Position numbers and translations under genes: made by a program. This document shows, piece after piece, positions 2,686 through 30,356 of a DNA stretch of 64,000 bases (its first letter is position 1; each line of letters opens with the position of its first letter). The notes under the pieces were generated by a model. That model was not told the DNA's origin, searched no databases, and saw nothing but the letters and a program-made list of their open reading frames with translations. The stretch is from an uncultured Gemmatimonadota bacterium (GTDB lineage Bacteria; JAAXHH01). The stretch is from positions 3,552,001-3,616,000 of the forward strand of contig OX638340.1 in NCBI GenBank assembly GCA_951812955.1. The letters are read 5' to 3'.

Positions 2686-4020
2686 ATGTCGCAAATCCGC
2701 CTGCCCCTGGTCGTTACGTGGGGCCTGGTCGTCCTGTGGTTCGTGCTGGACGTCACGGCCCTTATGGCGGGCGGCCCATTTAATGTCAACTGGACCATAC
2801 CGGTCGCCGCGGCCTGGCTCTCGGTCGTATGTCTCCGCGCGGGCAGAGGTTACGGCGGGTTCCTGTCCGCGGTTCTGCTCTATACGGCAGGCGTCCGCCT
2901 GCTGATCATACTGCTGGCGATCCTGGGCAAGACGACCGGGCTCGATGGCGCGTACTTCACCTGGGGACGCAGCGCGCTATTCGGCCTGGTCATTCCCCAT
3001 GTCGTGCTGTGGCCGGTCGTCACCTTTATCGCGGGTACGCTGATCTGGCCGGTGACGGCCCTGGTTATGCGCCGGAGACAGGTATCCTATCGAGGCGCGG
3101 CCATGGGCGTTTTGATCATCCTTCTGCTCGTCTTCATCGGCCTGCCCTACCTGATTTCGACCCTGTACACCGGCAGCGTGGGACCTCGCCGCAAGGCGCA
3201 GGACACCCCCGCGGACCACGGGATGGTCTACGAGGACGTCACGCTGACGACTTCCGACGGCCTGAACCTGGCCGCATGGTACGTCCCGAACGAGACCGGC
3301 CGCGGCACGGTCATTTACTGTCACGGCCATCTCAACCACAGGGGTCAGATGCTCGACCAGGCAGCCTTTATTCATGAAAACGGCTTCAATGGGCTCCTGT
3401 TCGATTTCCGGCGGCATGGGGACAGCGAAGGCAATCTGACGACATTCGGCTATTTCGAGTGGCGCGATGCACAGGCGGCCCTGAGATACGCGGTCGACGT
3501 GCGGGGAGAGCAAGGTCCGGTCATTTTGTGGGGTGTTTCCATGGGCGCGGCCACCGCGTTGCTCACGGCAGCTGAAGAGCCCGAGATCGACGCCGTCATC
3601 GCCGAAAGCAGTTTCTACGCGGCCTCCGAAACGCTGCGCGGCGACCTGAACCGGATGTTCGGCCTGCCCACGGTGCCCTTCGGGTTTCTGACGGGTACCA
3701 TAACGGAACTTCGGGTGGGCATCAAGCTTGATGCCCTGGACATCGGCCGCGCGGTGTCCGGCCTGAAGGAAGCTTCCGTGCTTCTGGTGGGCGGCACGGC
3801 GGATCGCCGCATGCCGGTATCGAACAACGAACGGCTATACGACCAGATACCCGGAACGCGCAAGGAGATCTACGTGGTGGAGGGCGCGACCCACGGCGAC
3901 ATTTGGGAAATGGACCGGGAAGCGTACGCGGAGACGGTCCGGCAGTTCCTGGAAAGATATGGTTTGCTCGATGGCCCTGAACCGCCGGCCGGCGAGGAAA
4001 CCGCGGAAGAAACGCTGTAG
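2686..4020 (+). CDS. Membrane-anchored alpha/beta hydrolase. About 170 aa of N-terminal transmembrane segments are followed by an esterase or peptidase-like domain.
   Basis: There are several hydrophobic helices at the N-terminus. A GxSxG nucleophile elbow is present as GVSMGAA, together with [19 protein letters not shown] and a C-terminal GATHGD (histidine of the catalytic triad). Confidence 0.75.
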
Positions 4021-4054
4021 ATTACGTTGCAGGTTGGCTGCTGATAGCGCGGAA

Positions 4055-4120
4055 GATAACGCCGCAAGTAGCGCTGCGGATAACATTGTAGATAACGCTG
4101 CAAGTAGCACTGCAGATAAC
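4055..4120. repeat. Intergenic imperfect tandem repeat, GATAAC-N18-GATAAC.
   Basis: The sequence reads gataacgccgcaagtagcgctgcg / gataacattgta / gataacgctgcaagtagcactgca / gataac. Confidence 0.7.
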
Positions 4121-4144
4121 TCAGAAGAAATAAGGGGAACAGGC

Positions 4145-4813
4145 GTGAGCGAACCCGTGTTTCAACCCCTGTCGTCCTACCAGGAATATCCACCCGACGA
4201 GATGGAGCGGCGGGCCGAAGCATTCTACCAGGCGCTTCGCCGCCGGCGCACGGTCCGTGAATTCTCCGACCGGCCCGTGCCGAAATCGATCATCGATCAC
4301 TGCATACTGGCGGCCGGCACGGCGCCCAGCGGCGCGAACATGCAGCCGTGGCATTTTGCCGCGGTGTCCGACCCTGAAATCAAGGCGACGATCCGCGTCG
4401 CCGCAGAGCGGGAGGAACAACAGTTCTACCAGGAGAAGGCGCCGCAGGAGTGGCTCGACGCACTGGCCCCACTGGGTACCGACCAAAACAAACCATTTCT
4501 GGAAACGGCGCCTTGGCTGATCGCGATCTTCGTACAGCGCCACGGCATGCTGCCCGACGGGCGGAGCGTAAAGCACTATTACGCCCTGGAATCGGTGGGC
4601 ATCGCCACGGGGATGCTGATCGCGGCGGTGCACCACGCCGGCCTGGCGTCGCTCACCCACACCCCGAGTCCCATGAACTTCCTGAACCGGCTGCTGGGCA
4701 GGCCGGCCAACGAGCGGCCCTTCCTGCTCCTGGTCGTCGGCTACCCGGCGGAAGGCGCGGAAGTGCCGGTAATCACGAAAAAGCCCCTTGACGACATTGC
4801 CACGTTCGCTTGA
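4145..4813 (+). CDS. Nitroreductase-family flavoprotein. The likely start is GTG at 4145; the track ORF instead starts at ATG 3959, inside the upstream gene.
   Basis: Motifs [21 protein letters not shown] and [14 protein letters not shown] are present. The sequence AAGGGGA lies 6 nt upstream of the GTG. The 3959-4144 stretch overlaps the hydrolase C-terminus and an intergenic repeat. Confidence 0.65.
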
Positions 4814-15878: not shown

Positions 15879-16685
15879 CTAGTGCCGGTCGACCCGGGGT
15901 TCGATGGGCAATTCGCGGAACTCCTGGATCAATCCCGCCAGTTCCTCCGAAGCAGCGCGGTAGAGCGCTTCGCCCTTCTCCACCGTGGCGACGGTGGCGT
16001 CGCCGATGACGCCCGATTCGGAGATCCTGGACCACTCGTCCATCATGCGCAAAGGCGATGCGCCCTTGCCCCGGACCCAGCCGCGCCAGTAGTACTTGGA
16101 CACGGGGACCTTCACTTCCCGCACGGCCTTGTCCATCTGGACCGCGTCGTCATTGAGGTAGCGGTAGACCGAGGTCTCGATCTCGTCCGCGTGGGACTGC
16201 AGCTCGGAGTCGCCGATCTCCCACAGCTTGGACTGCGCCACGCTCCACCAGTTGAGCGTACCGCAGTGGGCGTCCGTCTCGATGACCGTACGCCGGGAGG
16301 CCGTCTCCAGGATGGTGGCGTTGGACCCGTGGCCGTTGACGATGAGGATCTTCCGGAAACCGTGATGGGCCACGCTCTTCGTGATATCCACCACGAAATC
16401 CTGCAGGTGGTCGTCCCGTACGGTGATCGTCCCGGGGAAGTCCATGTGGTGGTCCTCGAACCCGTAAGGCAGGGCCGGCAGGATCAGCACCTCGTCGGGG
16501 ATGAGCTTCGCCGCGCCTTCGCACACGCTGCTCGCCAGGAAGGTGTCCACGTCCAGGGGCATATGGTAGCCGTGGTCCTCCGTGGAACCGACGGGCAGGA
16601 TGACGGCCGGTTGCTCCTTCACCTTCTCCTTCAGTTCGACCCAGGTGTAGTGGTCGTAGCGATAGGGCAGGCGTGGACCCTTCAT
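15879..16685 (-). CDS. Creatininase / creatinine-amidohydrolase family metal-dependent amidohydrolase.
   Basis: VILPVGSTEDHGYHMP, LPYGF and IVNGHGSN are family motifs. Confidence 0.8.
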   Translation of the reverse strand: MKGPRLPYRYDHYTWVELKEKVKEQPAVILPVGSTEDHGYHMPLDVDTFLASSVCEGAAKLIPDEVLILPALPYGFEDHHMDFPGTITVRDDHLQDFVVDITKSVAHHGFRKILIVNGHGSNATILETASRRTVIETDAHCGTLNWWSVAQSKLWEIGDSELQSHADEIETSVYRYLNDDAVQMDKAVREVKVPVSKYYWRGWVRGKGASPLRMMDEWSRISESGVIGDATVATVEKGEALYRAASEELAGLIQEFRELPIEPRVDRH

Positions 16686-16767
16686 AATTGCTCCTTACGC
16701 TTGTCTACGGTTCGATCCAGTCGGTCAGATCGGCCATACATTACCTGTTCGTACCACACCAAACGCG

Positions 16768-17838
16768 TCAAGCGCTCATGCGCGGGATGACTTCATTCAC
16801 GAAGAGGTCCATGCTGTGGAGCCAGGCTTCCTTGTCGTCCCAGTCGTATCCCATGAGGATCAGCGTGCCGAAGTCCCCCGTCTCCTCCCGCATCGCGTCC
16901 AGCCGGCGGACCACCTCGTCCACGTCCCCGTGGATGATCTGTTCCGTCATCAGGTAGTCCAGGTTGCACTGCGAATCCGGCAAGTCCGGGTCCCGCTTGA
17001 GCATCTTCCGACCCAGTCCCTGGTCGAAGAGGCCGCCCAGGTATTCGAAGCCCCGGCCCAGAGAATTGGTGCGCACTTTCGTTGCCGCTTCCTCCTTGCT
17101 GTCGGCGAGGAAGATGCTGCGGCAGATGCGCCAGTCTTCGCGGTCGGGCGTGCGCCCGGCGTCCTGGGCCGCCTGTTCGTAAACCCGCCAGTTGTCGGCT
17201 ACGACGTTGCCCGGTGAAATGTTGGCGCTGATGGGAAACCAGCCCTTCTCACCCGCGATCCTCATGGTGGAGGAGTTCATGCTCATCCCGGGGGCGCCAA
17301 TGGGCGGATGCGGCTGTTGCAGGGGCTTGTGGATATAGCCGATCAGCGTGTCGCGGTCCACGTTCTCTTCCAGGTCGATCTCCCAGAAACGGCCCTTCAG
17401 GTGATAGGGCGGGTCCTGGCTCCAGATCTGCAGGATCATCTCCGCCGACTCGGCGGCCATGGCGCTGTTGAGCTTCGGATCGATCTTATAAAGTTCCAGG
17501 TCCGTTGTCACGCTGCCGGGGCCGAAGCACAGGTTGAGCCGTCCGTGGGAAAGCTGGTCCATGAAGGCCAGCCGGCTGGCCACGTGGGCCGGGTGGTGAT
17601 AGGGCAGGCAGGTGGGCGCCGTGCCAAGCCGGATGGTGTGGGTCATGGCAAGGGCCTTGCCTATGAAGGCCTCGGGCAGCACGATGTTCTCGTACTTCAT
17701 GGTATGGTGTTCGCCGATCCAGAACTCGGTGAAACCCAGCTCTTCGCAGCGCACGATCAGTTCCAGGTCCTCGTCGTGGCACTGTGCGGCCGGCTTGACC
17801 GGGTCGTGGAAGGGCATGATGAACATCCCGTATTTCAT
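16768..17838 (-). CDS. Luciferase-like monooxygenase (LLM) class flavin- or F420-dependent oxidoreductase, paralog 1 of 3.
   Basis: It starts MKYGMFIMPFHDP at ATG 17838 with a GGAGA RBS. The track ORF extends a further 46 codons upstream. The protein has a TIM-barrel LLM signature and is about 55-60% identical to the two paralogs downstream. Confidence 0.85.
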   Translation of the reverse strand: MKYGMFIMPFHDPVKPAAQCHDEDLELIVRCEELGFTEFWIGEHHTMKYENIVLPEAFIGKALAMTHTIRLGTAPTCLPYHHPAHVASRLAFMDQLSHGRLNLCFGPGSVTTDLELYKIDPKLNSAMAAESAEMILQIWSQDPPYHLKGRFWEIDLEENVDRDTLIGYIHKPLQQPHPPIGAPGMSMNSSTMRIAGEKGWFPISANISPGNVVADNWRVYEQAAQDAGRTPDREDWRICRSIFLADSKEEAATKVRTNSLGRGFEYLGGLFDQGLGRKMLKRDPDLPDSQCNLDYLMTEQIIHGDVDEVVRRLDAMREETGDFGTLILMGYDWDDKEAWLHSMDLFVNEVIPRMSA

Positions 17839-18012
17839 ATCTGATTCTCCGGTGTTGGTCCTGATTCGTGCCGGCGTTGTCTGAACCCGGCCGGCCTGGG
17901 GACGATGATTCGATGCCGGTTTCCCGCGTTTCCTCTCAGCCCCGTAGCCACGTCCTTCCCGCTCGGTAACGCGCACCTACCCGCTCGGTAACGCGTATGC
18001 GCACCTTCCCGC

Positions 18013-19101
18013 TCACTGCTGCATGCGCGGCATGACTTCGTTGGCGAAAAGCTCCGTACTACGCAGCCACGCGGCCTTGTCTTCCGCGTCGTTCCAGTCG
18101 AAAGCCATGAGGATGAGCGTTCCGAAATCCCCCGTCTCGTCCCGCAGTTCGTCGAGTCGGCGGACCACCTCGTCCACGTCGCCGTGGATGATCTGTTCGC
18201 CCAGGTAGTAGTCTCTGTCGCACGCTTCGTCGGCCATGTCAGGATCGCGCTTGAACATCTTCTTGCGTCCGGGCTCATTCCCCTTGTCCAGGACCCCTCC
18301 CAGAAACCGGAAGAACCCGCCGAGGTAACTCGACCACGCCCGCTTCCTGGCCACGTCCCGGTCGTCGGCCACGAAGATGCTTCGGCAGACGCGCCAGTCG
18401 GCCCGGTCTGGCGTACGGCCTGCTTCGAGCGCCGCCTTCTCGTACACCTTCCAGTTGTCTGCTACGATGTTGCCCGCGATCAGGTTGCTGCTGATGGGCG
18501 CCCACCCCTTCTGTCCGGCGGACTTCATGGTCGACGAGTTCATGCTCATGGCCGGCGCGCAGATGGGCGGATGGGGCCGTTGCAGGGGTTTCTGAATGAT
18601 GCCGAGATGGGACTCGCGGTCGACCCACTTCTCGAGCCCGATCTGCCAGAACCGTCCGTCGTACCGGTAGGGTGAGTCCTGTGTCCACAACTGAAGAATG
18701 ATCTCCGCGGCCTCTTCCATCATGGCGCTGTTCGCCGCCGGGTCGATTCCGAAAAGCTCCAGGTCCGGGAAGACGCTGCCCGTGCCGAAACACAGGTTGA
18801 GGCGTCCGTGGGACAGGTGGTCCAGGAAGGCCAGGCGCGTAGCCACGTGGGCGGGATGGTGGTAGGGCAGGCACGTGGGCGCGGTGCCCAGCCGGATCGT
18901 GTCGGTCATGGCCAGGGCCTTGCCGATGAAGGCCTCCGGCAGGGCGATATTCTCCCACTGGTGGGTGTGGTGCTCGCCGATCCAGAACTCGGAAAACCCC
19001 ATCTCCTCGGCCAGCACGACCAGTTCCAGGTCCTCGTCGTAGCACTGGGCGGGCGGCTTCGCCGGATCGTGAAAGGGCATGATGAACATACCGTGCTTCA
19101 T
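18013..19101 (-). CDS. LLM-class flavin-dependent oxidoreductase, paralog 2 of 3.
   Basis: MKHGMFIMPFHDPAKPPAQCYDEDLEL... is collinear with paralogs 1 and 3. Confidence 0.85.
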   Translation of the reverse strand: MKHGMFIMPFHDPAKPPAQCYDEDLELVVLAEEMGFSEFWIGEHHTHQWENIALPEAFIGKALAMTDTIRLGTAPTCLPYHHPAHVATRLAFLDHLSHGRLNLCFGTGSVFPDLELFGIDPAANSAMMEEAAEIILQLWTQDSPYRYDGRFWQIGLEKWVDRESHLGIIQKPLQRPHPPICAPAMSMNSSTMKSAGQKGWAPISSNLIAGNIVADNWKVYEKAALEAGRTPDRADWRVCRSIFVADDRDVARKRAWSSYLGGFFRFLGGVLDKGNEPGRKKMFKRDPDMADEACDRDYYLGEQIIHGDVDEVVRRLDELRDETGDFGTLILMAFDWNDAEDKAAWLRSTELFANEVMPRMQQ

Positions 19102-19134
19102 ATTGGACTCCGAAACGCTGTTAGATCGCCGTAC

Positions 19135-20223
19135 TCAGGCGTAACCAAGCGACTTGTTCAACCTCGGCATGACTTCCCTGGCAAAGAGCTCGATGCAGTC
19201 GATCCAGGCCGCCCTGTCGTCCCAGTCGTGGGCGGTGAAGATGAGCGTGCCGAATTCGCCGGTCTCCTCCATCATGCGGTGCAGCTGCCGCACGCACTCG
19301 TCGGGATCGCCCGCGATGACCTGTTCGTCCATCATGTAGTCCAGGTTGACATCGGAATCGGGCATATCGGGATCCCGTTTCCACAGCCCCCTTCCAGGTC
19401 CGAGGTCGGTCAGCTTCATGGTATATTCCAGGCATTTGCCGAGTGAACTGTTCCGGGCCCTTTCGCGGGCTTCCTTCGTCGTCTCCGCCACGAAAATGTT
19501 ACGGGAGATCTTCCATTTGCGCCGGTCCGGCTCCCTGTCCTCCGTCCTGGCCCCTTCGGCATAGGTCTCCCAGTGGTTTACGAGCACGTTGGACGCGACC
19601 ATGTGATGGCTGAAGGGAGAATAGCCCTTCCGGCCCGCGATGCGGGTCCCGGCCGAATCGCGCATGATCACGGGAACGGAAAGGGGAGGGTGGGGTTTTT
19701 GCAGGGGCTTCAGGTAGACCCCCATGCCCAGATCCTCGCGGACTTCCCGGCCCACGTGCATTTGCCAGAAGCGGCCGTTTATATCGTAGGGCGGATCGGT
19801 GGTCCACAGGGTCATGATCATCTGTATCGCCTCGCCGACCATGGCCCCGGAGTCCTCGGGACGGATCCCGTACATCTCCATGTCAGTCGGGATGGCGCCG
19901 GGACCGAAGCAGATGTTCAACCTGCCGTGGGAGAGATGATCGAGGAAGGCCAGGCGTCCGGCCACGTGGGCGGGATGGTGGTAGGGCAGGCACACGGGCG
20001 CGGCGCCGAGCCGCATGCGGTCGGTCAGGCCCAGGGCCTTGCCGAGGAAGATCTCGGGCATGACGATGTTCTCGTAACTCGAGGAGTGGTGCTCGCCCAC
20101 CCAGAATTCGCTGAATCCGAGTTCCTCCGAACGCACCAGCATTTCCATGTCCTCGTCATAGCACTGTCCCGGCGGCTTCGTCGGATCGTGCACGGGCATG
20201 AGGAACACGCCATAGTCGATCAT
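19135..20223 (-). CDS. LLM-class flavin-dependent oxidoreductase, paralog 3 of 3.
   Basis: MIDYGVFLMPVHDPTKPPGQCYDEDMEM... shares the same architecture. Confidence 0.85.
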   Translation of the reverse strand: MIDYGVFLMPVHDPTKPPGQCYDEDMEMLVRSEELGFSEFWVGEHHSSSYENIVMPEIFLGKALGLTDRMRLGAAPVCLPYHHPAHVAGRLAFLDHLSHGRLNICFGPGAIPTDMEMYGIRPEDSGAMVGEAIQMIMTLWTTDPPYDINGRFWQMHVGREVREDLGMGVYLKPLQKPHPPLSVPVIMRDSAGTRIAGRKGYSPFSHHMVASNVLVNHWETYAEGARTEDREPDRRKWKISRNIFVAETTKEARERARNSSLGKCLEYTMKLTDLGPGRGLWKRDPDMPDSDVNLDYMMDEQVIAGDPDECVRQLHRMMEETGEFGTLIFTAHDWDDRAAWIDCIELFAREVMPRLNKSLGYA

Positions 20224-20315
20224 GCATTACTCCTTTTTACTATACTGACGGCTGCGCCCAGATTCCACGGCTGTGCCCAGTTCCCTTTAAACAACAGGCC
20301 CTTGCGTTGTTACGT

Positions 20316-21020
20316 TCACAACAGCCCTTTGCGGCGCTTGTTCTCGATTGTTTTCTCTACGAATCCGGGTCCGCACACCGCGTCGAATCCACTCCCAGGA
20401 AACCGGGTAGCCCATTCGTAAACGGTCCTGACACGGGCTTCGTCATCACCGAAGGCGCAAGGTTCGGTCCGCACCGTGTCCAGCGCTTCGATCACGGCGT
20501 CCGCGATCCGGCCGTACAGCCGGTCCTTCCACGCGCCCTGCGGCCCGCCCGGCCCGTCCACATTCCGCGCCTCCCGCGGCCCGCCTGTTCCGTCCGTCTG
20601 CCGCGCCTCCTGGTACCACGCCAAGGCGTTGAACTGAACTTTTTTGGACCGGGGATAGAAGGAGCACATGAGGTTCCAGTCGTCGCCTTCCCGCTCCTGG
20701 TCGCCCGAAGCCCGGAAGTCCGACCGGAGGAGGACGGACGGGATGTCGAGCAACTTGGCCATCATGAACTCCACTACCGTGCCCGAGTCCAGGTCCGTCC
20801 CATCGAAGTTGAACAGGGCCAGGTCGCAGGCCATCACTTGCTTAAGATCCTGGTTGCGGATGTCGACCATCCGTTCCGACGCCAGTTCCAGGTCCTGGGG
20901 CACCACGCAGGCGTACCTGCCGGCGGACCGGCGGTCTATGGCTTCCGCGAGGATGGCGTTGCCGGCCAGGTGCTTGTGGTCGAAGAGGTCGCCGGCGAAA
21001 TACACGGTAAAAGTCGTCAT
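20316..21020 (-). CDS. Rossmann-fold protein similar to nucleoside 2-deoxyribosyltransferase.
   Basis: The N-terminal VYFAGDLF and the DSGTVVEFMMAKLLDIP(S)V segment resemble the NDT fold with its catalytic glutamate. The C-terminus is low complexity. Confidence 0.5.
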   Translation of the reverse strand: MTTFTVYFAGDLFDHKHLAGNAILAEAIDRRSAGRYACVVPQDLELASERMVDIRNQDLKQVMACDLALFNFDGTDLDSGTVVEFMMAKLLDIPSVLLRSDFRASGDQEREGDDWNLMCSFYPRSKKVQFNALAWYQEARQTDGTGGPREARNVDGPGGPQGAWKDRLYGRIADAVIEALDTVRTEPCAFGDDEARVRTVYEWATRFPGSGFDAVCGPGFVEKTIENKRRKGLL

Positions 21021-21037
21021 GGGCTATGGCTGTCCGC

Positions 21038-21895
21038 TTACCGTCCTGAGTACCGTTTACCGATTTCGGCCGCATCGGGAGTCGCGTTTGCGACCATGAC
21101 GCCCTCGTCGATCATGTCGGTGACGTTGTCGGGGGTGACGCCGTTCAGGAAGGCGACGCCGTTGGCCTTGCAGGCCTTGAGCACCGCCGCCCGCGCGGCG
21201 ATCATCTCGGGCGGGTAGGGCGGATCGTGGCCGTCCGGGTATCCGAAGGACATCCCCATGTCGCCCGGACCCCACTCGGCGAAGGCGATGCCAGGTATCG
21301 TGAGGCTCTCGTCGACGTTGGCCAGGGCCCGGCGGTTCTCGATCTTGAGACCGAGCATCAGTTCCCCTTCCGGGTTCAGGGGCCATACGTCGGCCCGCTG
21401 GACGTATTCCTGCACGGTGAGTCCCCAGGCGCACGCCGCGAAACCCTGCCCCCCCGAACCGCGCTGGCCCACTTCGAGCCCGTCACCCACGCCCTGGGTC
21501 TGGAAGGGGTAACGCGCAGCCTCCACGAAGGCCCGCACGGCGCCCGGTGTCTCCGCGTGGCACAGCAGGATTCCGTGAACGCCCTGTGCCAGGACCTGCT
21601 TGACCATCCACGCGTTCGCCCGCATGACCGCTTCATTGGTACCGTTCGTCGGCAGCGTGACGATCACGCAGGGCGTCAGGTGACCCGTCGGCGTGGGCCC
21701 GGCGTCCATCAGCCCGGTCATGAAGGCCCTGAGGCCGGGCAGATCGAAGAGGCCGTGCTCCATTTCGACGCACAGGTAGTCCTCCCATCTCCCCGAGGCT
21801 TCGACGCCCTTTTCGTAACTCAGTTCGCCGGCCCCGCCGTAGTATATGGGCTGGCCCCGACTAAGCAGTTCCACTGCGCGGTTGACTCTGGGCAT
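21038..21895 (-). CDS. HpcH/HpaI-family aldolase (2-keto-3-deoxy acid aldolase / citrate-lyase beta-like).
   Basis: VNRAVELLSRGQPIYYGG, CVEMEHGLFDL and GPGDMGMS are present. Confidence 0.75.
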   Translation of the reverse strand: MPRVNRAVELLSRGQPIYYGGAGELSYEKGVEASGRWEDYLCVEMEHGLFDLPGLRAFMTGLMDAGPTPTGHLTPCVIVTLPTNGTNEAVMRANAWMVKQVLAQGVHGILLCHAETPGAVRAFVEAARYPFQTQGVGDGLEVGQRGSGGQGFAACAWGLTVQEYVQRADVWPLNPEGELMLGLKIENRRALANVDESLTIPGIAFAEWGPGDMGMSFGYPDGHDPPYPPEMIAARAAVLKACKANGVAFLNGVTPDNVTDMIDEGVMVANATPDAAEIGKRYSGR

Positions 21896-21987
21896 TTGTT
21901 ATTCTCCCAACTAGCTGTCCTGTTCCGAATCGAAGGCAGGCCGCGTCAGTCGCGAAACCGGCCGCTATGCCAAATCTGGTGGGTGGT

Positions 21988-23001
21988 TCACGGACGTTCA
22001 AAGGGCAGCCGGTCCGCCATTCCCGAGTCTTCCGCCAATCCAGCCAGGTTCTCCGCCGCCATGCGTGTCAAGGGAACTCCCTTGCGGCGGGATACCGCTT
22101 CGCTGTCGTATTCCATTTCACCCGGCACGTAGGTGCGTTCCACCCTGGCCGCCTTCGGCGCTTCCCGCATGCGCCGAACGAGTTCGTCCGCACGATCTAA
22201 AAACGCGTCCGGCGGCATCATGGCGCCCACGTCGATGGCCATGAAGCTGTGCCCCTCGTCGCAGGTCGCGTCGGTGACCTTGCCCCAGGACGTAATATCC
22301 GTAGTGACCCCCGCCCCGGCGAGCACACCGGCCAGGGATTCCACCAGCAGGGCCAGACCGTAGCCTTTGTGTGCGCTGAAGGGCGTAAGGGCCCCGGTAA
22401 AGGTGAAGACGCCGGGATCCGTCGTGGGCAGACCGTCCCCGTCGGTGAGCCATCCCTCGGGAAGCGGTTCGCCCCTGGCCTGGTACAAGGCCACCTTTCC
22501 GCCCGCCACGGTACTCATGGCGATGTCGAGGACGATCGGCGGCTGGGACCGGGTCGGAACGGCATATGACAGGGGGTTGTTTCCTAAGGCCGCACCCCGG
22601 CCGCCGGGGATGTTCATGACCACGTCGGTATTGCTCATGGCGATCCCGATCATGTTCCGTTCCAGGGCCATGAGCGTATAGGCCGAAGCCGCGCCGAAGT
22701 GGTTGCTCCGGCGGACGGTGGCCGTGCCAATCCCGCACTTCGCCGCCTTGTCCATGGCCACGGTCATGCCGTAGTGCGACGCAACCATCCCCACGGACTG
22801 GCAGGCGTCGATCCTTGCCCAGGCCGGACCTTCGTCCGTTATCCCGGGCGTGGCGCCTGCGTCGATGCCTCCGTCCCGCATCATCTGCACGTAGCGCCGC
22901 AGCGAGACCGTACCGTGCGTGAAGATACCCCGCATGTCGGTACGCACCAAAATGTCCGCAGTCAACCTGGCGTCGCGGGGCGAGAGTCCCGCCTCTACCA
23001 T
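21988..23001 (-). CDS. Ldh2-family malate / L-lactate / sulfolactate / ureidoglycolate dehydrogenase. Its N-terminus may be under-called.
   Basis: DMRGIFTHGT, RRSNHFGAA, NNPLSYAVP and SAHKGYGLALLVE are family motifs. Family-like residues continue upstream of the first ATG, and no canonical start codon is found there. Confidence 0.75.
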   Translation of the reverse strand: MVEAGLSPRDARLTADILVRTDMRGIFTHGTVSLRRYVQMMRDGGIDAGATPGITDEGPAWARIDACQSVGMVASHYGMTVAMDKAAKCGIGTATVRRSNHFGAASAYTLMALERNMIGIAMSNTDVVMNIPGGRGAALGNNPLSYAVPTRSQPPIVLDIAMSTVAGGKVALYQARGEPLPEGWLTDGDGLPTTDPGVFTFTGALTPFSAHKGYGLALLVESLAGVLAGAGVTTDITSWGKVTDATCDEGHSFMAIDVGAMMPPDAFLDRADELVRRMREAPKAARVERTYVPGEMEYDSEAVSRRKGVPLTRMAAENLAGLAEDSGMADRLPFERP

Positions 23002-23141
23002 GGCCGCCGTGCAGAAGTCCGACAGGGGTTCGGGTGGAGTCCGCAGAACGTAGAGTTGATCTGACGTGTGTGTCTGGTTGGCGTCGGTGCCCAGCGCTGG
23101 TGCCTTTCTAGCCGCCGCGGTGTCCTGCCTGCCGCAGTATG

Positions 23142-23987
23142 CTAACCGCCGCGAATACCGGCGGTAACGCGTTCGAAACCGCCGATCATATAACTGTAGT
23201 CGCAGTCGACCTGGATCCAGTCGACGCCCCGGCTCCTCCAGCGCCGCCCGAAGGCGTACTGCGATCCCATACCCATGCCGATGGAGAGTCCCGATTCGTG
23301 TCCCACGTCGATGATGCGCTCCATGGCGGCCACTACCTCGTCGTTGTCCAATTGCCCGAGAACGCCCATCGAACCGCTCAGGTCCACCGGACCGATGACC
23401 AGGCTGTCCAACCCCGGTATGGCCGCGATGGCGTCCAGTTCACGATAGGCCTCGACGTGCTCGATCTGGACCGAGACGAAGAGGTCCCGGTTCATGTCTT
23501 CCACGAATGAGTCAATATTCGAAAAAGCCCTTCCGTAGTTCGACGGACGATGGGGACCGAAGCCCCGGTCGCCCATGGGCGGATAACGGCAGGCGTCCAC
23601 CACGCGGCGCACCTCGTCGGCGGAGCGGACCTGCGGGACGATGATACCAGGCGCGCCCGCGTCGAGGACGGGCTTCACGTGCCCGATGTCGCTCGAGGGC
23701 ACCCGGACCAGCGCGGCGGTTCCACCCGCGCGGGCGGCCATGAGGTGGCCCGTGACCGACTCGAGGTTCATCGCCCGGTGCTCGGTGTCGATCCAGATGA
23801 AGTCTGCCGAATCGCACAGGGCCTCGGTCACGGCCGGGTCGGTGAAGGTCACGCTGGCGCCCAGGCAGCATTCACCCTCGGCGATCAGCTTCCTGAACGC
23901 CCTTATTTCATTAGAGAACAATGGTTGCTCCACGAGTATGGACTGGTTACTTGTCTTAAGGGTCGCGTCCGGTCGTTCCGAACGCAC
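23142..23987 (-). CDS. Second HpcH/HpaI-family aldolase.
   Basis: DFIWIDTEHRAMN, LVRVPS and VIGPVDLSGSMG are present. Confidence 0.7.
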   Translation of the reverse strand: MRSERPDATLKTSNQSILVEQPLFSNEIRAFRKLIAEGECCLGASVTFTDPAVTEALCDSADFIWIDTEHRAMNLESVTGHLMAARAGGTAALVRVPSSDIGHVKPVLDAGAPGIIVPQVRSADEVRRVVDACRYPPMGDRGFGPHRPSNYGRAFSNIDSFVEDMNRDLFVSVQIEHVEAYRELDAIAAIPGLDSLVIGPVDLSGSMGVLGQLDNDEVVAAMERIIDVGHESGLSIGMGMGSQYAFGRRWRSRGVDWIQVDCDYSYMIGGFERVTAGIRGG

Positions 23988-24026
23988 GTTAACTGTTGGC
24001 CGTTCCGGACGGACGGTTCCGCATTC

Positions 24027-25442
24027 CTAGACAGCGCCCTCCTGCCACGGTCCCCAGATGGCGTAGGTCAGCCCGGGCCGCTGCATGTTGACGAAGAGGG
24101 TCTCGCCGTCGGGACTGAAGGTCGCCCCGGCGAACTCGCCCCGGTAGGCGATGCCGGCCACGTCCCGGGCCACGTCGAACACGCGCCCGTCCTTCGTCAG
24201 GCCCCGGATGTGCTGTACGCCGTCCCGGTTGTCCTCGCACACGATCAGGCCGCCGCGGGGACTCACGCAGACGTTGTCCGGCGCTGCCATGAGCGAAGCG
24301 TCGGGCGATTCGAACAACAGGGTCAACACGCCTTTGTCTTCCCCGTCGGGTTGGAATTCCCACACCTGTCCGAGGCGCTCGTCGCCTCCTCGCGTCGACG
24401 TGAAGAAGATGCGGCCGTTTCCGTACCAACATCCTTCAAGGCGGTCGAAGGCGGCGCCGCCCTTGTCCGCCCCTTCCTTGTATACCAGGTTCCGGTCCAG
24501 GCCAGCGCCCGCCGGATCGGGATCTTCGATCTCCACCCAGGTCACGGGCAGGACCGTGCCCATGGTCTGTCCACTGCGCGTGTCGTATCCCGGTTGATCC
24601 TCGACCGCGAGCATACGCAGGCGGCCGCCCCGGGCGAGCTCGCCGGGATGATCGGGAAGGTACTGGAAGAATCCGCACGGATTCTGGTCTTCGGTTTCAT
24701 ACACGGCCCCGGTGGCGGGATCGACGGCGATGGCCTCGTGGACGAAACGTCCCATTCCGGTAAGGGGTTCGGCCGCCACACTCTCCTCGGCATCGGCGGG
24801 CACCTCGAAGCAGTATCCGTGGTTCCTGTCGTATCCGCCCAGGTACTGCAGCCAGCGAGCACTGAAGAACCGGTCCGTGCCCATGGTGGTCTCTTCACAG
24901 GTGATCCAGGAGCCCCACGGCGTGGGGCCGCCGGCGCAGTTGTGCAGCGTCCCGCCCACGCTCACGAAATCGCGGACCAGTTCGCGGGTCCGAGGATCGA
25001 CGATGAGCGTCGTAACCCCGCCGGGCGCGGTGGGATCGTAGGCTGCCGACTGGTTGCCGATGGCCTCGACCGGACTGCCCGTGTTTATTTCGTGATTGCG
25101 CAGTAGCCGGACCATGCCGTCCTCCGCGGAGAAGGCCGCCATGCCGTCGTGGGCGGCCGGCGTGGGATGGCCGTCCGACATGAGGCCGCCCTTCTTTCCG
25201 AACACGGTATAGGCGAATTTCGGCGGCAGTTCGAGCATGGTCTCGCCGGTGTTGTGAGACGTCACGGGAGAAAGCGGCCCATATCCGCCCTCCCCCCGGG
25301 AAGCCTGCAGGCTGGCGGATCCGTCGGACATGGCCCGCGCGCGGCGGGCGATAAGGCCCTGGAGCGCCGATGCGCCGAAAGTCATGGCGCCAAGGGCCAC
25401 GGCGGAATGTCGAATGAATGAGCGTCGGTTCAGTCGGGACAC
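24027..25442 (-). CDS. Tat-secreted protein of the PhoX/DUF839 family, a putative secreted phosphatase.
   Basis: The likely start is GTG 25442 after AAAGGAGA, giving MSRLNRRSFIRHSAVALGAMTFGASA, a Tat signal. A motif like that of PhoX, GTLHNCAGGPTPWGSWITCEE, is present. The track ORF extends 31 codons upstream. Confidence 0.6.
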   Translation of the reverse strand: MSRLNRRSFIRHSAVALGAMTFGASALQGLIARRARAMSDGSASLQASRGEGGYGPLSPVTSHNTGETMLELPPKFAYTVFGKKGGLMSDGHPTPAAHDGMAAFSAEDGMVRLLRNHEINTGSPVEAIGNQSAAYDPTAPGGVTTLIVDPRTRELVRDFVSVGGTLHNCAGGPTPWGSWITCEETTMGTDRFFSARWLQYLGGYDRNHGYCFEVPADAEESVAAEPLTGMGRFVHEAIAVDPATGAVYETEDQNPCGFFQYLPDHPGELARGGRLRMLAVEDQPGYDTRSGQTMGTVLPVTWVEIEDPDPAGAGLDRNLVYKEGADKGGAAFDRLEGCWYGNGRIFFTSTRGGDERLGQVWEFQPDGEDKGVLTLLFESPDASLMAAPDNVCVSPRGGLIVCEDNRDGVQHIRGLTKDGRVFDVARDVAGIAYRGEFAGATFSPDGETLFVNMQRPGLTYAIWGPWQEGAV

Positions 25443-25600
25443 GTGAGCAATTCTCCTTTGGCGTTGACTCCGCCTGGTGTTGACTCCGCAATGTCGGCGA
25501 TGCGGAGGACGTGTCGGGTAAAATACAGAATCCAATATTCAATTTACGGTAGCGGATCGCTAAAATCAAGACGCCACTGCAGGTTATTCCGATCGGATAT

Positions 25601-26467
25601 TCAGCCGAACCTGATGAAGACCAGCCCGGCGACGATCATCCCGACGGAGCACAGTTTCAGCGGGGTGACGCGCTCTTTAAGGAAGATGAAGCCCAACAGG
25701 GCGCCCAGGACCACGGCGAACTCCCGCAGGGCGACGATGTAGCCGACCTGACCCACGGTCATGGCGAAGAGGATCATCAGGTAGGCGGCAGTCGAGCCGA
25801 CGGCGATCAACGTCACGGGCCGCCAGGTCTCCGCCAGCTTCCGCCAAAGCCGGTTCCGGTCGCGGACGGCGACGACCGGTGTGGCGAACGAGGCGCTCAG
25901 GAAGAACATGCCGAATATGTACACTACGGGATGCACGATACCCACCCCCACCTTGTCCACCAGCGAGTAACTCACGATGGTCGCGCCTACCCCGAGGGCC
26001 GATACGAACCCGTGCCGCGTGCCCCTCGCGCTGCCCAGGATCGAAGCGCCCATGGAAAGAATTCCCACGCAGATCAGCCCGATACCCGCTACGCCGATCG
26101 GCGTAAGCGACTCACCGAGCAGCAGCCATCCCAGGAATCCCGTGAGGCCGATCCCCGATCCTCGCGCGATGGGGTAGACCAGGGAGATTTCTCCATACTC
26201 GTAGGCCCGGCCCAGGAGCAGGAAGTAAAACGTGTGGATGATCCCCGTCGCCAGAATAAAGATCCAGCCGGCCTCCAGCATGGCCATGAATTCCGGGATG
26301 CCCTGCGATACGGCGACGCCGGCAACCAAGGGCAGGAGCAAGAGACAACTGACCCAGAGAGACCACCAGAACACGGTGAGGTTTCCGGCGTTGCGGCGGG
26401 CCACGAAATTCCAGGAGGCATGTAGTATGGCGGAGAGGAGGACGAAGAAGAAGAGTTCAGTGGACAT
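25601..26467 (-). CDS. DMT-superfamily (EamA-like) 10-TM transporter.
   Basis: Two EamA halves are present with a typical hydrophobic periodicity and a length of 288 aa. Confidence 0.8.
   Translation of the reverse strand: MSTELFFFVLLSAILHASWNFVARRNAGNLTVFWWSLWVSCLLLLPLVAGVAVSQGIPEFMAMLEAGWIFILATGIIHTFYFLLLGRAYEYGEISLVYPIARGSGIGLTGFLGWLLLGESLTPIGVAGIGLICVGILSMGASILGSARGTRHGFVSALGVGATIVSYSLVDKVGVGIVHPVVYIFGMFFLSASFATPVVAVRDRNRLWRKLAETWRPVTLIAVGSTAAYLMILFAMTVGQVGYIVALREFAVVLGALLGFIFLKERVTPLKLCSVGMIVAGLVFIRFG

Positions 26468-30282: not shown

Positions 30283-30356
<74 letters not shown>

What the first reader, a model, noticed from the sequence alone, without database searches (positions are those of the whole stretch)
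15879..23987. Three tandem LLM flavin oxidoreductase paralogs with creatininase-family, NDT-like, HpcH aldolase (x2) and Ldh2 genes on one strand
Three consecutive LLM-class genes start MKYGMFIMPFHDP, MKHGMFIMPFHDP and MIDYGVFLMPVHDP, an obvious tandem triplication with divergence. A creatininase-family amidohydrolase lies immediately upstream on the same strand. A nucleoside 2-deoxyribosyltransferase-like protein, an HpcH/HpaI aldolase, an Ldh2-family dehydrogenase and a second HpcH aldolase follow downstream. LLM monooxygenases (for example RutA) and ring-opening amidohydrolases act together in N-heterocycle catabolism, so this may be a catabolic island for a nucleobase-, nucleoside- or lactam-like compound. 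The creatininase fold is also used by cofactor-maturation peptidases. The substrate is unknown.
Basis: inference. Interest (0 to 1): 0.5.

Follow-up and report, generated by a model that had tools for sequence, protein, structure and literature searches.

The report
Flavin monooxygenase-aldolase gene cluster, substrate unknown
This is a real, conserved cluster of ordinary enzyme families in uncultured, often sponge-associated Latescibacterota: an old pair of flavin monooxygenase genes plus a younger third copy, probably working with two aldolases on an unknown compound, with no good evidence that it breaks down nucleobases or lactams.

Summary
All eight genes exist at the stated coordinates and belong to the stated families, but they lie on the minus strand. 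The real order is HpcH-A > Ldh2 > HpcH-B > NDT-like > LLM x3 > creatininase-family, so the creatininase gene is last, not upstream.

The "triplication" is an old alpha/beta LLM pair (about 53% identical). A younger copy of beta (69%) is kept in about half of the related species and is under purifying selection.

The closest solved relative by sequence and by fold is 3,6-diketocamphane monooxygenase, an FMN-dependent type II Baeyer-Villiger enzyme. RutA is not a match, and F420 enzymes are far weaker matches.

The neighbourhood is conserved only in one Latescibacterota-type lineage. In sister lineages it also carries a flavin reductase, 4-hydroxyphenylpyruvate dioxygenase and a divergent homogentisate-dioxygenase-like cupin.

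Across variants the LLMs travel with HpcH-A and, in two variants, a flavin reductase. They do not travel with the creatininase or NDT-like genes: each set occurs without the other, and very similar solitary creatininase genes exist in other phyla.

Best reading: a two-component FMNH2-dependent oxygenase plus aldolase catabolic module with an unknown substrate. The N-heterocycle idea is not supported. This is an ordinary but uncharacterised cluster of modest interest.

The parts
25601..26467 (-).
   Evidence: Pfam EamA 73.6 bits. An ortholog sits in the same position in L001, L002, L010-L028, L062 and L096.
24027..25535 (-). PhoX-like alkaline phosphatase with a twin-arginine signal; conserved upstream neighbour
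   Evidence: Pfam PhoX 248.3 bits. The TAT signal motif scores 16.3 bits, just below its 16.7 cut-off. Orthologs lie next to the cluster in the window clade, L062, L031 and L096.
23142..23987 (-). HpcH-A: canonical HpcH/HpaI class II aldolase. This is the maximal ORF; orthologs are called 259 aa, so the true start is probably about 22 codons downstream.
   Evidence: Pfam 89 bits. Best NCBIfam match is HpaI, 131 bits against a 368.8 cut-off. His45, Arg70, Glu149 and Asp175 of E. coli HpaI (4b5s numbering) all align with identical residues. It is present in every LLM-bearing variant and absent in the LLM-less L097.
21988..23001 (-). Ldh2-family NAD(P)-dependent 2-hydroxy/2-oxo-acid oxidoreductase
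   Evidence: Pfam Ldh_2 350.2 bits. No equivalog cut-off is reached; the best is L-sulfolactate dehydrogenase, 214 against 500. The best PDB match is 1v9n. It is present in all variants. The frame stays open and homologous upstream to about 23100, but with no ATG/GTG/TTG before 23001.
21038..21895 (-). HpcH-B: divergent HpcH/HpaI-fold protein of a widespread, highly conserved subfamily
   Evidence: Pfam 40.8 bits and 23% identity to HpcH-A. Metal ligands (E186, D212) and His47 are conserved, but the canonical Arg70 position is Thr80 beside an 8-residue insert; Arg92 is invariant instead. Orthologs of 65-75% identity sit alone in Abditibacteriales, Litorilinea and Dehalococcoidia.
20316..21020 (-). 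Nucleoside 2-deoxyribosyltransferase-like protein with a roughly 110-aa C-terminal extension; accessory gene
   Evidence: Pfam PF05014 44.8 bits. PDB 7m5h matches at E 5e-6, with the YFAG and DG..D.G..E motifs aligned. It is absent from L029, L031 and L095, and present without LLMs in L030 and L097.
19135..20223 (-). LLM-alpha (starts MIDYG): oxygenase component, old orthogroup
   Evidence: Pfam Bac_luciferase 145.4 bits. Matches 4uwm at E 5e-42. AF2 model pLDDT 92; Foldseek top hit 4uwm, TM 0.87. Orthologs are 72-98% identical, including L095 at 77% and L096 at 81%. dN/dS 0.096.
18013..19101 (-). LLM-beta2 (starts MKHG): lineage-specific copy of the beta type
   Evidence: 69% identical to LLM-c. 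Forms one clade in the NJ tree, branching beside the beta orthologs of the window clade plus L062 and congruent with them. Present in 9 of 19 related species representatives. dN/dS 0.148.
16768..17838 (-). LLM-beta (starts MKYG): oxygenase component, old orthogroup. The ORF can be extended to a GTG at 17976, but orthologs start at MKYG.
   Evidence: Pfam 122.9 bits. Orthologs are 69-98% identical. dN/dS 0.088.
15879..16685 (-). Creatininase-fold metal hydrolase; last gene of the block, probably not a dedicated partner of the LLMs
   Evidence: Pfam 233.9 bits. It falls below the MftE (134/172), creatininase (116/235) and IolN (90/245) cut-offs. It is the most conserved gene of the block: 83-99% identity and dN/dS 0.059. 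Solitary orthologs occur in other phyla. It lies next to PabB/PabC-like genes in L029 and L096, and one gene away from PabB in L032.
3959..4813 (+). Nitroreductase-family protein; the only candidate flavin reductase in the window (weak candidate)
   Evidence: Pfam Nitroreductase 85.9 bits. BluB scores 63 against 150. It is syntenic in L002, L013, L015, L027 and L062. No PF01613-type reductase is found in the window.

Best explanation
The block is a conserved, modular catabolic gene neighbourhood of one uncultured lineage. MAGs of this lineage are labelled Latescibacterota, Gemmatimonadetes or Zixibacteria, and many come from sponges.

Its centre is an old pair of diverged luciferase-like monooxygenases (alpha and beta). 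This genome also has a younger, still selected copy of beta.

Inferred mechanism:
1. Each LLM is the oxygenase half of a two-component system. A separate NAD(P)H:flavin reductase supplies FMNH2. That reductase is encoded inside the cluster in sister lineages but not in this window.
2. The LLM forms a flavin (hydro)peroxide and inserts one oxygen atom into a carbonyl-bearing substrate. The chemistry is Baeyer-Villiger-type or a related oxygenation. The paralogs may cover different isomers or successive steps, as the two diketocamphane isoenzymes do.
3. The oxygenated, opened product is then trimmed. The Ldh2 enzyme does 2-oxo/2-hydroxy-acid redox, and the two HpcH-type metal aldolases cleave it to pyruvate plus an aldehyde.

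The creatininase-fold hydrolase and the NDT-like protein are neighbours that vary independently and probably serve another, more widespread function. The substrate is unknown. The sister-lineage gene content points weakly to an aromatic or aryl 2-oxo-acid rather than an N-heterocycle.

Shown: family memberships, the orthology and duplication history, purifying selection, and the presence/absence patterns. Inferred: FMN dependence, the chemistry, and the coupling between LLMs and aldolases.
For: - Family and fold. All three LLMs match PF00296. The best solved homolog over the full length is 3,6-diketocamphane monooxygenase, at E 4e-40 and 5e-42. The AF2 model (pLDDT 92) has 4uwm as top Foldseek hit (TM 0.87, 27% identity), followed by RslO1, a homodimeric luciferase and LuxA. 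F420 enzymes rank lower.
- Active site. His46 and Glu52, the two cavity residues shared by both diketocamphane enzymes (PMC4631483), align with invariant H45 and E51 of all three LLMs.
- Reductase. A PF01613 flavin reductase lies directly upstream of HpcH-A in two sister variants, L032 and L096.
- Conservation. The order HpcH-A, Ldh2, HpcH-B, LLM-alpha, LLM-beta recurs in L001, L002, L006/L029, L031 and L095. It recurs with gaps in L032 (no LLM-beta) and L096 (no HpcH-B). Flanks outside the block differ.
- Co-variation. The LLM-less architecture seen in L097, and in part in L030, has also lost HpcH-A, HpcH-B and the reductase. It keeps Ldh2, NDT and creatininase.
- Selection. All genes are under purifying selection, dN/dS 0.06-0.19.
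- HpcH-A keeps all four catalytic residues of HpaI.
- Precedent. LLM-type Baeyer-Villiger enzymes with a reductase encoded elsewhere are documented (PMC12239570).
Against: - Identity to the diketocamphane enzyme is only 27-30%. Its FMN contacts His10 and Ser44 are not conserved here (Met9, Gly43), so the chemistry could differ.
- No flavin reductase of the PF01613 type lies in the 64-kb window.
- LLM, HpcH-B and creatininase homologs of 60-75% identity occur alone in other phyla. The cluster is therefore lineage-specific, and part of its conservation is plain synteny among relatives.
- The co-loss argument rests on one LLM-less architecture, seen in two contigs.
- L096 has the LLMs but no HpcH-B.
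- No regulator, riboswitch, promoter or terminator defines an operon.
- No paper in the searched library describes the cluster.
Confidence: 0.45

Rival explanations
1. This is a catabolic island for a nucleobase, nucleoside or lactam: the NDT-like protein releases the base, an LLM oxidises the ring as RutA does, and the creatininase-fold amidohydrolase opens the ring.
For: - The creatininase fold does include cyclic amidohydrolases, and Pfam scores 233.9 bits.
- The NDT-like protein keeps the motif that carries the catalytic Glu.
- In the window clade the three gene types are adjacent on one strand.
- A PhoX-like phosphatase upstream could dephosphorylate nucleotides.
Against: - No RutA match at E <= 0.01, and no RutB-G set in the parts of the window that were annotated.
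- The LLMs are nearest to ketone Baeyer-Villiger enzymes.
- LLMs and the creatininase/NDT genes vary independently, as L030, L097 and L095 show.
- Creatininase orthologs are solitary in other phyla.
- Creatininase falls below every equivalog cut-off.
Confidence: 0.1
2. Aromatic-substrate version. The block is the lower part of a pathway for 4-hydroxyphenylpyruvate-type or aryl-ketone compounds. A two-component LLM plus reductase hydroxylates or Baeyer-Villiger-oxidises the aryl compound, a cupin dioxygenase cleaves the ring, and FAH, Amidohydro_2, HpcH aldolases and Ldh2 process the product. This parallels the hpa/hpc pathway.
For: - In L096 the same neighbourhood carries a true HPPD (TIGR01263, 439.8 against a 277 cut-off), an FAA-hydrolase-family protein, an HgmA-like cupin and a flavin reductase, all directly upstream of HpcH-A.
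- HPPD-like and HgmA-like genes also sit directly upstream in L031 and L097, and an HgmA-like C-terminus does so in L032.
- The best NCBIfam match of HpcH-A is HpaI.
- The flavin reductase is of the PF01613 family (from my own knowledge, the HpaC type).
Against: - None of HPPD, HgmA-like, FAH, Amidohydro_2 or PF01613 is found in this 64-kb window.
- HPPD, HGD and FAH could be a self-contained tyrosine operon that merely lies next door.
- The HgmA-like protein is far below the hmgA cut-off (59 against 510).
- The LLM-less architecture keeps HPPD and HgmA-like, so those genes do not need the LLMs.
Confidence: 0.2
3. Sugar-acid version. The aldolases cleave 2-keto-3-deoxy sugar acids derived from algal or sponge polysaccharides (rhamnose, fucose, uronates). 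Ldh2 and the LLMs handle the resulting aldehydes or lactones.
For: - The best PDB and NCBIfam matches of HpcH-B are the 2-keto-3-deoxy-L-rhamnonate aldolase YfaU.
- Its Litorilinea ortholog sits beside an aldo/keto reductase, an Amidohydro_2, an esterase, an FGGY kinase and an MFS transporter.
- A galactonate dehydratase equivalog (382 >= 311) and a DHDPS-type aldolase lie 6-11 kb away in the window.
- UBA2968 Latescibacterota are reported as polysaccharide degraders in sponges (PMC13200403).
Against: - From my own knowledge, no LLM-type step is known in non-phosphorylative sugar-acid routes.
- The dehydratase gene is variably present beside the cluster and lies on the other strand.
- No sugar dehydrogenase or sugar transporter lies inside the block.
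Confidence: 0.12
4. No functional unit. The genes are independent enzymes held together by inherited synteny in one lineage, and their adjacency carries no pathway information.
For: - Each key component has 60-75% identical stand-alone homologs elsewhere.
- Synteny extends beyond the block within the window clade.
- Genes drop in and out, including a histidine-kinase insertion and losses of NDT, Amidohydro_2, PhyH and HpcH-B.
- No operon signals were found.
Against: - The core order persists in L029, L031 and L095, and with single-gene gaps in L032 and L096, although their flanks differ.
- Gaps between genes are short (17-174 nt) and all genes are on one strand.
- LLMs, HpcH-A, HpcH-B and the reductase are lost together in one architecture.
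Confidence: 0.15
5. The LLMs are F420-dependent oxidoreductases (reductases or dehydrogenases), not oxygenases.
For: The highest NCBIfam score for LLM-b and LLM-c is the F420 subfamily TIGR03619, at 103.5 and 92.9 bits.
Against: - Those scores are below the 166.9 cut-off.
- LLM-a scores higher on the FMN-type MsnO8 model.
- Solved F420 enzymes score 35-48 bits, against 141-148 for the FMN-dependent diketocamphane enzyme, and rank lower by fold.
- A flavin reductase is encoded in the cluster in L032 and L096.
- No F420 biosynthesis gene was seen among the window genes annotated.
Confidence: 0.06

Closest known systems
2,5- and 3,6-diketocamphane monooxygenases of the Pseudomonas putida CAM plasmid (type II Baeyer-Villiger monooxygenases; PDB 4uwm/5aec)
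   Same: - LLM TIM-barrel fold, with a full-length alignment and the best sequence and fold match.
- The shared cavity residues His46 and Glu52 are conserved.
- They occur as diverged isoenzyme paralogs, 45% identical to each other (PMC4631483), compared with about 53% for alpha and beta here.
- The reductase can be encoded elsewhere (PMC6843404 abstract).
   Different: - Only 27-30% identity.
- The FMN contacts His10 and Ser44 are not conserved.
- The position of the non-prolyl cis-Ala77 bulge is an invariant Pro here.
- The gene context is aldolases and Ldh2 rather than camphor genes.
- Baeyer-Villiger activity is untested.
Other LLM-type Baeyer-Villiger enzymes: the Caenibius tardaugens progesterone LLM EGO55_13860, AbmE2/AbmZ and RslO1 (7bip)
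   Same: These are two-component LLM oxygenases that act on ketones. RslO1 is the second-best solved match. The C. tardaugens case shows an LLM working with a distant reductase (PMC12239570).
   Different: RslO1 scores much lower (76-91 bits, 22% identity). Their contexts are steroid catabolism or polyketide biosynthesis.
hpa/hpc 4-hydroxyphenylacetate (homoprotocatechuate) pathway (HpaBC, HpaD, HpaG, HpaI)
   Same: The shared families are a PF01613 flavin reductase (in sister variants), an FAH-family enzyme, a ring-cleaving dioxygenase, and an HpcH/HpaI aldolase with all catalytic residues.
   Different: The oxygenase here is an LLM rather than an HpaB-type enzyme. The dioxygenase is an HgmA-like cupin. 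None of the upstream genes is present in this window. HpcH-A is far below the HpaI equivalog cut-off (131 against 368.8).
Rut pyrimidine pathway (RutA LLM + RutF reductase + RutB amidohydrolase)
   Same: The general logic is the same: an LLM oxygenase plus a flavin reductase plus a hydrolase. A nitroreductase-family gene and an alpha/beta-hydrolase gene lie about 12 kb away, loosely recalling RutE and RutD.
   Different: There is no RutA match at all. The hydrolase here has the creatininase fold, whereas RutB (from my own knowledge) is an isochorismatase-type enzyme. No RutC or RutG is present, and the hydrolase is uncoupled from the LLMs across genomes.
SAR202 flavin-dependent monooxygenase (FMNO) paralog expansions
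   Same: Multiple diverged LLM paralogs in an uncultured marine heterotroph, proposed to act as type II Baeyer-Villiger enzymes on recalcitrant organic matter (PMC5395668). Similar accessory families lie nearby (SDR, PhyH, enolase superfamily).
   Different: Here there are only two or three copies, in a fixed conserved cluster with aldolases, and in a different phylum.
Bacterial luciferase LuxAB (alpha/beta paralog pair)
   Same: Adjacent diverged LLM paralogs and the same fold.
   Different: Both paralogs here keep the conserved His, Glu and other invariant residues and evolve slowly. Neither looks like a degenerate beta subunit. A heterodimer was not tested.

Membership tests
Luciferase-like monooxygenase (LLM) superfamily, PF00296 | Profile match above the gathering score over the whole domain | tested here: met
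   122.9, 154.7 and 145.4 bits against a 27.9 cut-off, covering profile positions 1-311 of 314.
Luciferase-like monooxygenase (LLM) superfamily, PF00296 | TIM-barrel fold like solved members | tested here: met
   AF2 model of LLM-alpha with pLDDT 92 and pTM 0.91. Foldseek TM is 0.87 to 4uwm and 0.79 to LuxA.
Type II (FMN-dependent, two-component) Baeyer-Villiger monooxygenases | Closest characterised or solved relative is a type II BVMO | tested here: met
   4uwm is the top hit by sequence (E 4e-40 and 5e-42) and by fold. The next hit is 50-70 bits lower.
Type II (FMN-dependent, two-component) Baeyer-Villiger monooxygenases | Cavity residues shared by both diketocamphane enzymes (His46, Glu52) | tested here: met
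   They align with H45 and E51, which are invariant in all three LLMs and in 45 homologs.
Type II (FMN-dependent, two-component) Baeyer-Villiger monooxygenases | FMN isoalloxazine contacts of 3,6-DKMO (His10, Ser44) | tested here: not met
   They align with Met9 and Gly43. The paper notes that these contacts are not conserved in 2,5-DKMO either.
Type II (FMN-dependent, two-component) Baeyer-Villiger monooxygenases | Partner NAD(P)H:flavin reductase | tested here: inconclusive
   No PF01613 homolog lies in the window. A nitroreductase-family gene at 3959-4813 is a weak candidate. PF01613 reductases are encoded inside the orthologous clusters L032 and L096.
Type II (FMN-dependent, two-component) Baeyer-Villiger monooxygenases | Ketone-to-ester or ketone-to-lactone oxygen insertion | not testable with these tools
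   This needs an enzyme assay.
RutA pyrimidine monooxygenase / Rut pathway | Match to the RutA equivalog model, with Rut partner genes present | tested here: not met
   RutA is not among the 24-28 NCBIfam LLM models matched at E <= 0.01. No RutB, RutC, RutF or RutG was found in the parts of the window annotated.
F420-dependent LLM oxidoreductases | Reaches an F420 subfamily cut-off, and the genome makes F420 | tested here: not met
   The best is TIGR03619, 103.5 against 166.9. Solved F420 enzymes score <= 48 bits.
Creatininase (creatinine amidohydrolase) / MftE / IolN / ArfB equivalogs | Reaches the curated equivalog score | tested here: not met
   MftE 134.2/172, creatininase 116.3/235, IolN 90.5/245, ArfB 23.9/180. 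The Pfam family-level match is met at 233.9 bits.
Creatininase (creatinine amidohydrolase) / MftE / IolN / ArfB equivalogs | Pathway partners adjacent (mftABCD, or inositol genes iolG/iolD) | tested here: not met
   No mycofactocin genes are adjacent. The nearby GFO_IDH_MocA protein scores IolG 69.6/355, and the TPP enzyme is acetolactate-synthase-like rather than IolD.
Nucleoside 2-deoxyribosyltransferase family, PF05014 | Profile match, and the catalytic Glu motif retained | tested here: met
   44.8 bits against 28.8. The alignment to 7m5h keeps YFAG and D..DG..D.G..E. Assigning that Glu as the nucleophile rests on my own knowledge of NDT enzymes. There is no NCBIfam match, and the C-terminal extension of about 110 aa is unexplained.
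HpcH/HpaI class II (metal-dependent) pyruvate aldolases | His45, Arg70, Glu149 and Asp175 (E. coli HpaI numbering) | tested here: met
   For HpcH-A all four align with identical residues in 4b5s. No equivalog cut-off is reached.
HpcH/HpaI class II (metal-dependent) pyruvate aldolases | The same catalytic set in HpcH-B | tested here: inconclusive
   The Glu and Asp metal ligands and the His are conserved (E186, D212, H47). The Arg70 position is Thr80 beside an 8-residue insert, and Arg92 is invariant in 27 homologs.
Ldh2 (type 2 malate/L-lactate dehydrogenase) family | Profile match; assignment to a specific enzyme | tested here: inconclusive
   The Pfam family match is met at 350.2 bits. No equivalog is reached: sulfolactate DH 214/500, ureidoglycolate DH 168/356. 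The best PDB match is 1v9n.

The most novel reading that the evidence does not exclude
The alpha/beta LLM pair, with its flavin reductase and the two HpcH-type aldolases, is a catabolic route not yet described. A type II Baeyer-Villiger-like oxygenase would open a cyclic or aryl keto-acid, and class II aldolases would finish it. The substrate could be a host- or alga-derived compound, such as a tyrosine-derived metabolite, used by sponge-associated Latescibacterota. The variable third LLM would widen the substrate range.
Probability: 0.2. Interest if true: 0.55.

Novelty: new member of a known kind. Interest (0 to 1): 0.3.

Why it matters
If the LLMs are active type II Baeyer-Villiger-like oxygenases, they would add a well-conserved, environmentally abundant clade to a class with very few characterised members. 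They would also give a handle on what uncultured sponge-associated Latescibacterota eat.

The comparative result is useful for annotation. The creatininase-fold gene and the divergent HpcH-B gene each belong to widespread, highly conserved families of unknown function, and they should not be named from this neighbourhood.

As it stands, the finding is an uncharacterised catabolic cluster built from familiar families, not a new kind of system.

Tried and rejected
- **RutA / Rut pathway:** no model match.
- **Mycofactocin MftE, creatininase proper, ArfB:** all below cut-offs, with no partner genes.
- **Inositol route with an IolN-like hydrolase plus IolG/IolD:** the neighbours fail the IolG cut-off and the TPP enzyme is acetolactate-synthase-like.
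- **F420 dependence:** below cut-offs, and far weaker matches than FMN enzymes.
- **Riboswitch or other RNA clue:** none in 15500-27000 at E <= 1; only a tRNA at 30283-30356 in the whole window.
- **Promoter and terminator scans:** fewer sites than in shuffles, so uninformative.
- **Frameshift in Ldh2:** rejected. The frame is open, but it has no canonical start upstream.
- **LLM-b as a decaying pseudogene:** rejected, dN/dS 0.148.
- **Using creatininase or HpcH-B context in other phyla to infer function:** the contexts are unrelated to each other. Only a loose recurring set of families appears around it in L053 and L066: PhyH, HpcH, Ldh_2, LLM, TPP enzyme and a creatininase paralog.
- **Literature searches for the cluster:** nothing found.
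- **afdb50 fold library:** not available.

Full report
**What is there**

ORF listing shows eight consecutive genes on the minus strand between 15879 and 23987. In the direction of transcription they are:

| Gene | Coordinates |
|---|---|
| HpcH-A | 23987-23142 |
| Ldh2 | 23001-21988 |
| HpcH-B | 21895-21038 |
| NDT-like | 21020-20316 |
| LLM-a (MIDYG) | 20223-19135 |
| LLM-b (MKHG) | 19101-18013 |
| LLM-c (MKYG) | 17838-16768 |
| Creatininase-family | 16685-15879 |

Gaps between genes are 17-174 nt. None of the eight reaches any NCBIfam equivalog cut-off.

The same-strand block continues upstream with a PhoX-like phosphatase carrying a TAT-like signal (25535-24027) and an EamA transporter (26467-25601). 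It continues downstream with a HAMP-SpoIIE phosphatase.

**The three LLMs**

Pairwise identities are a-b 51%, a-c 53.5% and b-c 69%. Orthology across related loci shows two old orthogroups:

- LLM-a (alpha) has orthologs of 72-98% identity.
- LLM-c (beta) has orthologs of 69-98% identity.
- Both are present, in this order, even in a groundwater Latescibacteria MAG (L095) and a marine contig (L096).

LLM-b forms a single clade in a neighbour-joining tree. That clade branches beside the beta orthologs of the window clade plus L062, after the split from the L029/L031 lineage. Its internal topology mirrors that of beta. It is present in 9 of the 19 related species representatives with a full locus. 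This fits one duplication followed by repeated loss. Where it is kept it is under purifying selection: dN/dS is 0.148, against 0.088 for beta and 0.096 for alpha. So the "triplication" is an old pair plus a younger, dispensable copy.

**What the LLMs resemble**

- The best solved homolog is the oxygenating subunit of 3,6-diketocamphane monooxygenase, at E 4e-40 for LLM-b and 5e-42 for LLM-a, aligned over the full length. This is an FMN-dependent type II Baeyer-Villiger enzyme.
- RslO1, a homodimeric luciferase and LuxA follow at 50-70 bits less.
- F420-dependent enzymes score 35-48 bits.
- An AlphaFold model of LLM-a (pLDDT 92) gives the same ranking by fold, with TM 0.87 to 4uwm.
- His46 and Glu52 are the only cavity residues shared by both diketocamphane isoenzymes (PMC4631483). 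They align with H45 and E51, which are invariant here.

Membership in the LLM superfamily is therefore firm. "Type II Baeyer-Villiger-like" is the best available functional analogy, at about 27-30% identity.

**Where the cluster occurs**

A scan of one genome per species, using the creatininase protein as query, found 79 loci. I mapped the window's proteins onto them.

- The full block occurs only in one lineage. Its MAGs are labelled Gemmatimonadetes, Latescibacterota or Zixibacteria, and many come from sponges. They include APA_bin_41 (99% identical creatininase), the SB0665 and IRC1 bins, and several closed 3.7-3.9 Mb chromosomes.
- Creatininase orthologs of 43-76% identity in Poribacteria, Opitutales, other Latescibacterota, Bryobacterales and Anaerolineae lack all the other genes and sit in unrelated contexts.
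- LLMs of about 60% identity in Planctomycetes are solitary.
- HpcH-B orthologs of 65-75% identity in Abditibacteriales, Litorilinea and Dehalococcoidia are solitary.
- Within the window clade, synteny also extends beyond the block, so conservation there is partly inherited.

The informative cases are the more distant variants, whose flanks differ.

**Variants**

| Locus | Gene order |
|---|---|
| L006/L029 | (HpcH-A on a sister contig) Amidohydro_2, Ldh2, HpcH-B, alpha, beta, creatininase, PabB-like, Aminotran_4 |
| L031 | PhoX, HPPD-like, HgmA-like cupin, HpcH-A, Amidohydro_2, Ldh2, HpcH-B, alpha, beta, creatininase |
| L032 | HgmA-like C-terminus, PF01613 flavin reductase, HpcH-A, Amidohydro_2, (small opposite-strand YfiR-like gene), Ldh2, HpcH-B, NDT, alpha, hybrid histidine kinase, Hpt, creatininase, PhyH, PabB |
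| L095 | HpcH-A, PhyH, Amidohydro_2, Ldh2, HpcH-B, alpha, unknown 245 aa, beta, unknown 410 aa, M48 peptidase, RraA-like, PhyH, PabB; no creatininase, no NDT |
| L096 | EamA, esterase, organophosphate-antiporter-like MFS, PhoX, HPPD (TIGR01263, 439.8 against 277), FAA hydrolase, HgmA-like, flavin reductase, HpcH-A, Amidohydro_2, Ldh2, NDT, alpha, beta, gene fragments, creatininase, PabB, Aminotran_4; no HpcH-B |
| L097 | HPPD, HgmA-like, Amidohydro_2, Ldh2, NDT, creatininase; no LLMs, HpcH-A, HpcH-B or reductase |
| L030 | Ldh2 (3' end), NDT, creatininase; no LLMs |

**Reading the pattern**

- LLM-alpha is always accompanied by HpcH-A and Ldh2, and usually by beta and HpcH-B. In two variants a flavin reductase sits directly beside HpcH-A.
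- In the one LLM-less architecture, HpcH-A, HpcH-B and the reductase are missing too.
- The creatininase and NDT-like genes behave differently. They persist without LLMs (L030, L097) and are absent where LLMs persist (L095).
- The creatininase gene lies at the 3' edge, next to PabB/PabC-like genes in L029 and L096 and one gene from PabB in L032. In L032 and L096 it is separated from the LLMs by insertions.
- It is by far the most conserved gene of the block: 83-99% identity and dN/dS 0.059. It also has close solitary orthologs in other phyla.

I therefore do not think it is the LLMs' dedicated hydrolase. The co-loss argument rests on a single architecture and is suggestive only.

**Mechanism proposed**

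1. A reductase supplies FMNH2. It is encoded in-cluster in sister lineages. In this genome it must be encoded outside the 64-kb window, or it is possibly the nitroreductase-family protein at 3959-4813.
2. The alpha and beta LLMs use FMNH2 to oxygenate a carbonyl compound.
3. Ldh2 and the aldolases process the opened product to pyruvate plus an aldehyde. HpcH-A keeps His45, Arg70, Glu149 and Asp175. HpcH-B keeps the metal ligands and the His, but has Thr at the Arg70 position and an invariant Arg92 instead.

Family memberships, gene history and co-variation are shown. The cofactor, the chemistry and the coupling are inferred.

**Substrate**

The substrate is unknown.

- The HPPD, FAH, HgmA-like and flavin-reductase genes in sister variants, together with the HpaI-like aldolase, point weakly to an aryl 2-oxo-acid or aryl ketone route analogous to the hpa/hpc pathway. 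None of those genes is in this window, and they may form an adjacent, independent tyrosine operon.
- A sugar-acid reading is also possible. HpcH-B is nearest to the rhamnonate aldolase YfaU, a galactonate dehydratase equivalog lies nearby, and the lineage is reported to degrade polysaccharides.
- The N-heterocycle reading has the least support.

**Other checks**

- No Rfam family lies in the block.
- Promoter and terminator scans gave no signal above shuffles.
- No F420 biosynthesis gene was seen among the window genes annotated.
- No paper in the searchable library describes this cluster.

**Verdict**

This is a new, uncharacterised member of a familiar kind: a two-component flavin monooxygenase cluster with aldolases, restricted to an uncultured lineage. 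Interest is modest.

Noticed in passing
window 23001-23141 (minus strand): The Ldh2 frame is open upstream of the ATG at 23001. It encodes a segment homologous to the N-terminus of the orthologs (LYVLRTP..DFC..AAM), but this stretch has no ATG, GTG or TTG. The start codon position of L001 reads TTA here. Either a non-canonical start is used or the protein lacks about 16-35 N-terminal residues.
   Followed up: partly
window 21988-23987 compared with L010 and L011: Against the two nearest genomes, HpcH-A and Ldh2 are only 82-84% identical, whereas the neighbouring genes are 90-99% identical. This suggests that this segment was replaced by recombination with a more distant relative.
   Followed up: partly
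window 15879-16685; L034-L088: The creatininase-fold protein belongs to a very conserved family of unknown function that stands alone: 74-76% identity to Poribacteria and 52-58% to Bryobacterales and other Acidobacteriota. No gene context is shared between these phyla. In Poribacteria (L089) it sits between methyltransferase genes and an OMP decarboxylase gene; in Bryobacterales (L091) it follows a QueA-family (Queuosine_synth) gene.
   Followed up: partly
window 21038-21895; proteins P0241-P0360: HpcH-B defines a widespread subfamily of the HpcH fold. The search found 7154 proteins at E <= 1e-10, and the closest 120 are 64-96% identical and span several phyla. The subfamily has an 8-residue insert and lacks the canonical catalytic Arg position, with Arg92 invariant instead.
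   Followed up: partly
L053 1400-14700; L066 2700-15700: In Opitutales and another marine MAG, the creatininase ortholog is surrounded by the same set of families but not by orthologs: PhyH (several), HpcH (two), a second creatininase paralog, Ldh_2, an LLM fragment, GFO_IDH_MocA, a TPP enzyme and an SDR.
   Followed up: partly
L095 9098-9835 and 11021-12253; L047 17795-18343; L053 20084-20662: Two proteins with no Pfam match (245 and 410 aa) are interleaved with the LLMs in the groundwater variant. The 245-aa protein has 33-37% identical homologs next to Amidohydro_2-like genes in two Opitutales loci.
   Followed up: no
L032 7182-10004; L096 15891-17532: A hybrid histidine kinase plus Hpt gene is inserted between LLM-alpha and the creatininase gene in L032, where it replaces LLM-beta. 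L096 has TonB-receptor and kinase fragments at the corresponding place, after LLM-beta.
   Followed up: no
window 10971-13682 (+), overlapping 10231-11202 (+): A 903-aa multi-pass membrane protein with no Pfam match lies next to a PCMT-type methyltransferase. The pair is conserved in most related loci (56-96% identity) and is variably present between the cluster and the epimerase/aminotransferase block. The listed ORFs overlap by about 230 nt, so its true start is probably later.
   Followed up: no
window 1407-10288 (+): A conserved convergent block holds an aminotransferase, an alpha/beta hydrolase, a nitroreductase-family protein, a DHDPS-type aldolase (TIGR02313, 380 against 396.7), two more aminotransferases, an epimerase-like protein and a galactonate dehydratase equivalog (382 >= 311). 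The dehydratase gene is present in some related loci and absent in others.
   Followed up: partly
window 26726-29110 (+): A MacB/FtsX-type permease gene lies between the EamA gene and the GFO_IDH_MocA gene. In L001 and L002 the EamA and GFO genes are adjacent, with no permease gene between them. L023 carries an FtsX ortholog upstream of its EamA gene.
   Followed up: no
window 30283-30356 (+): The only Rfam hit in the window is a tRNA gene, between the GFO_IDH_MocA gene and an acetolactate-synthase-like TPP enzyme gene.
   Followed up: no
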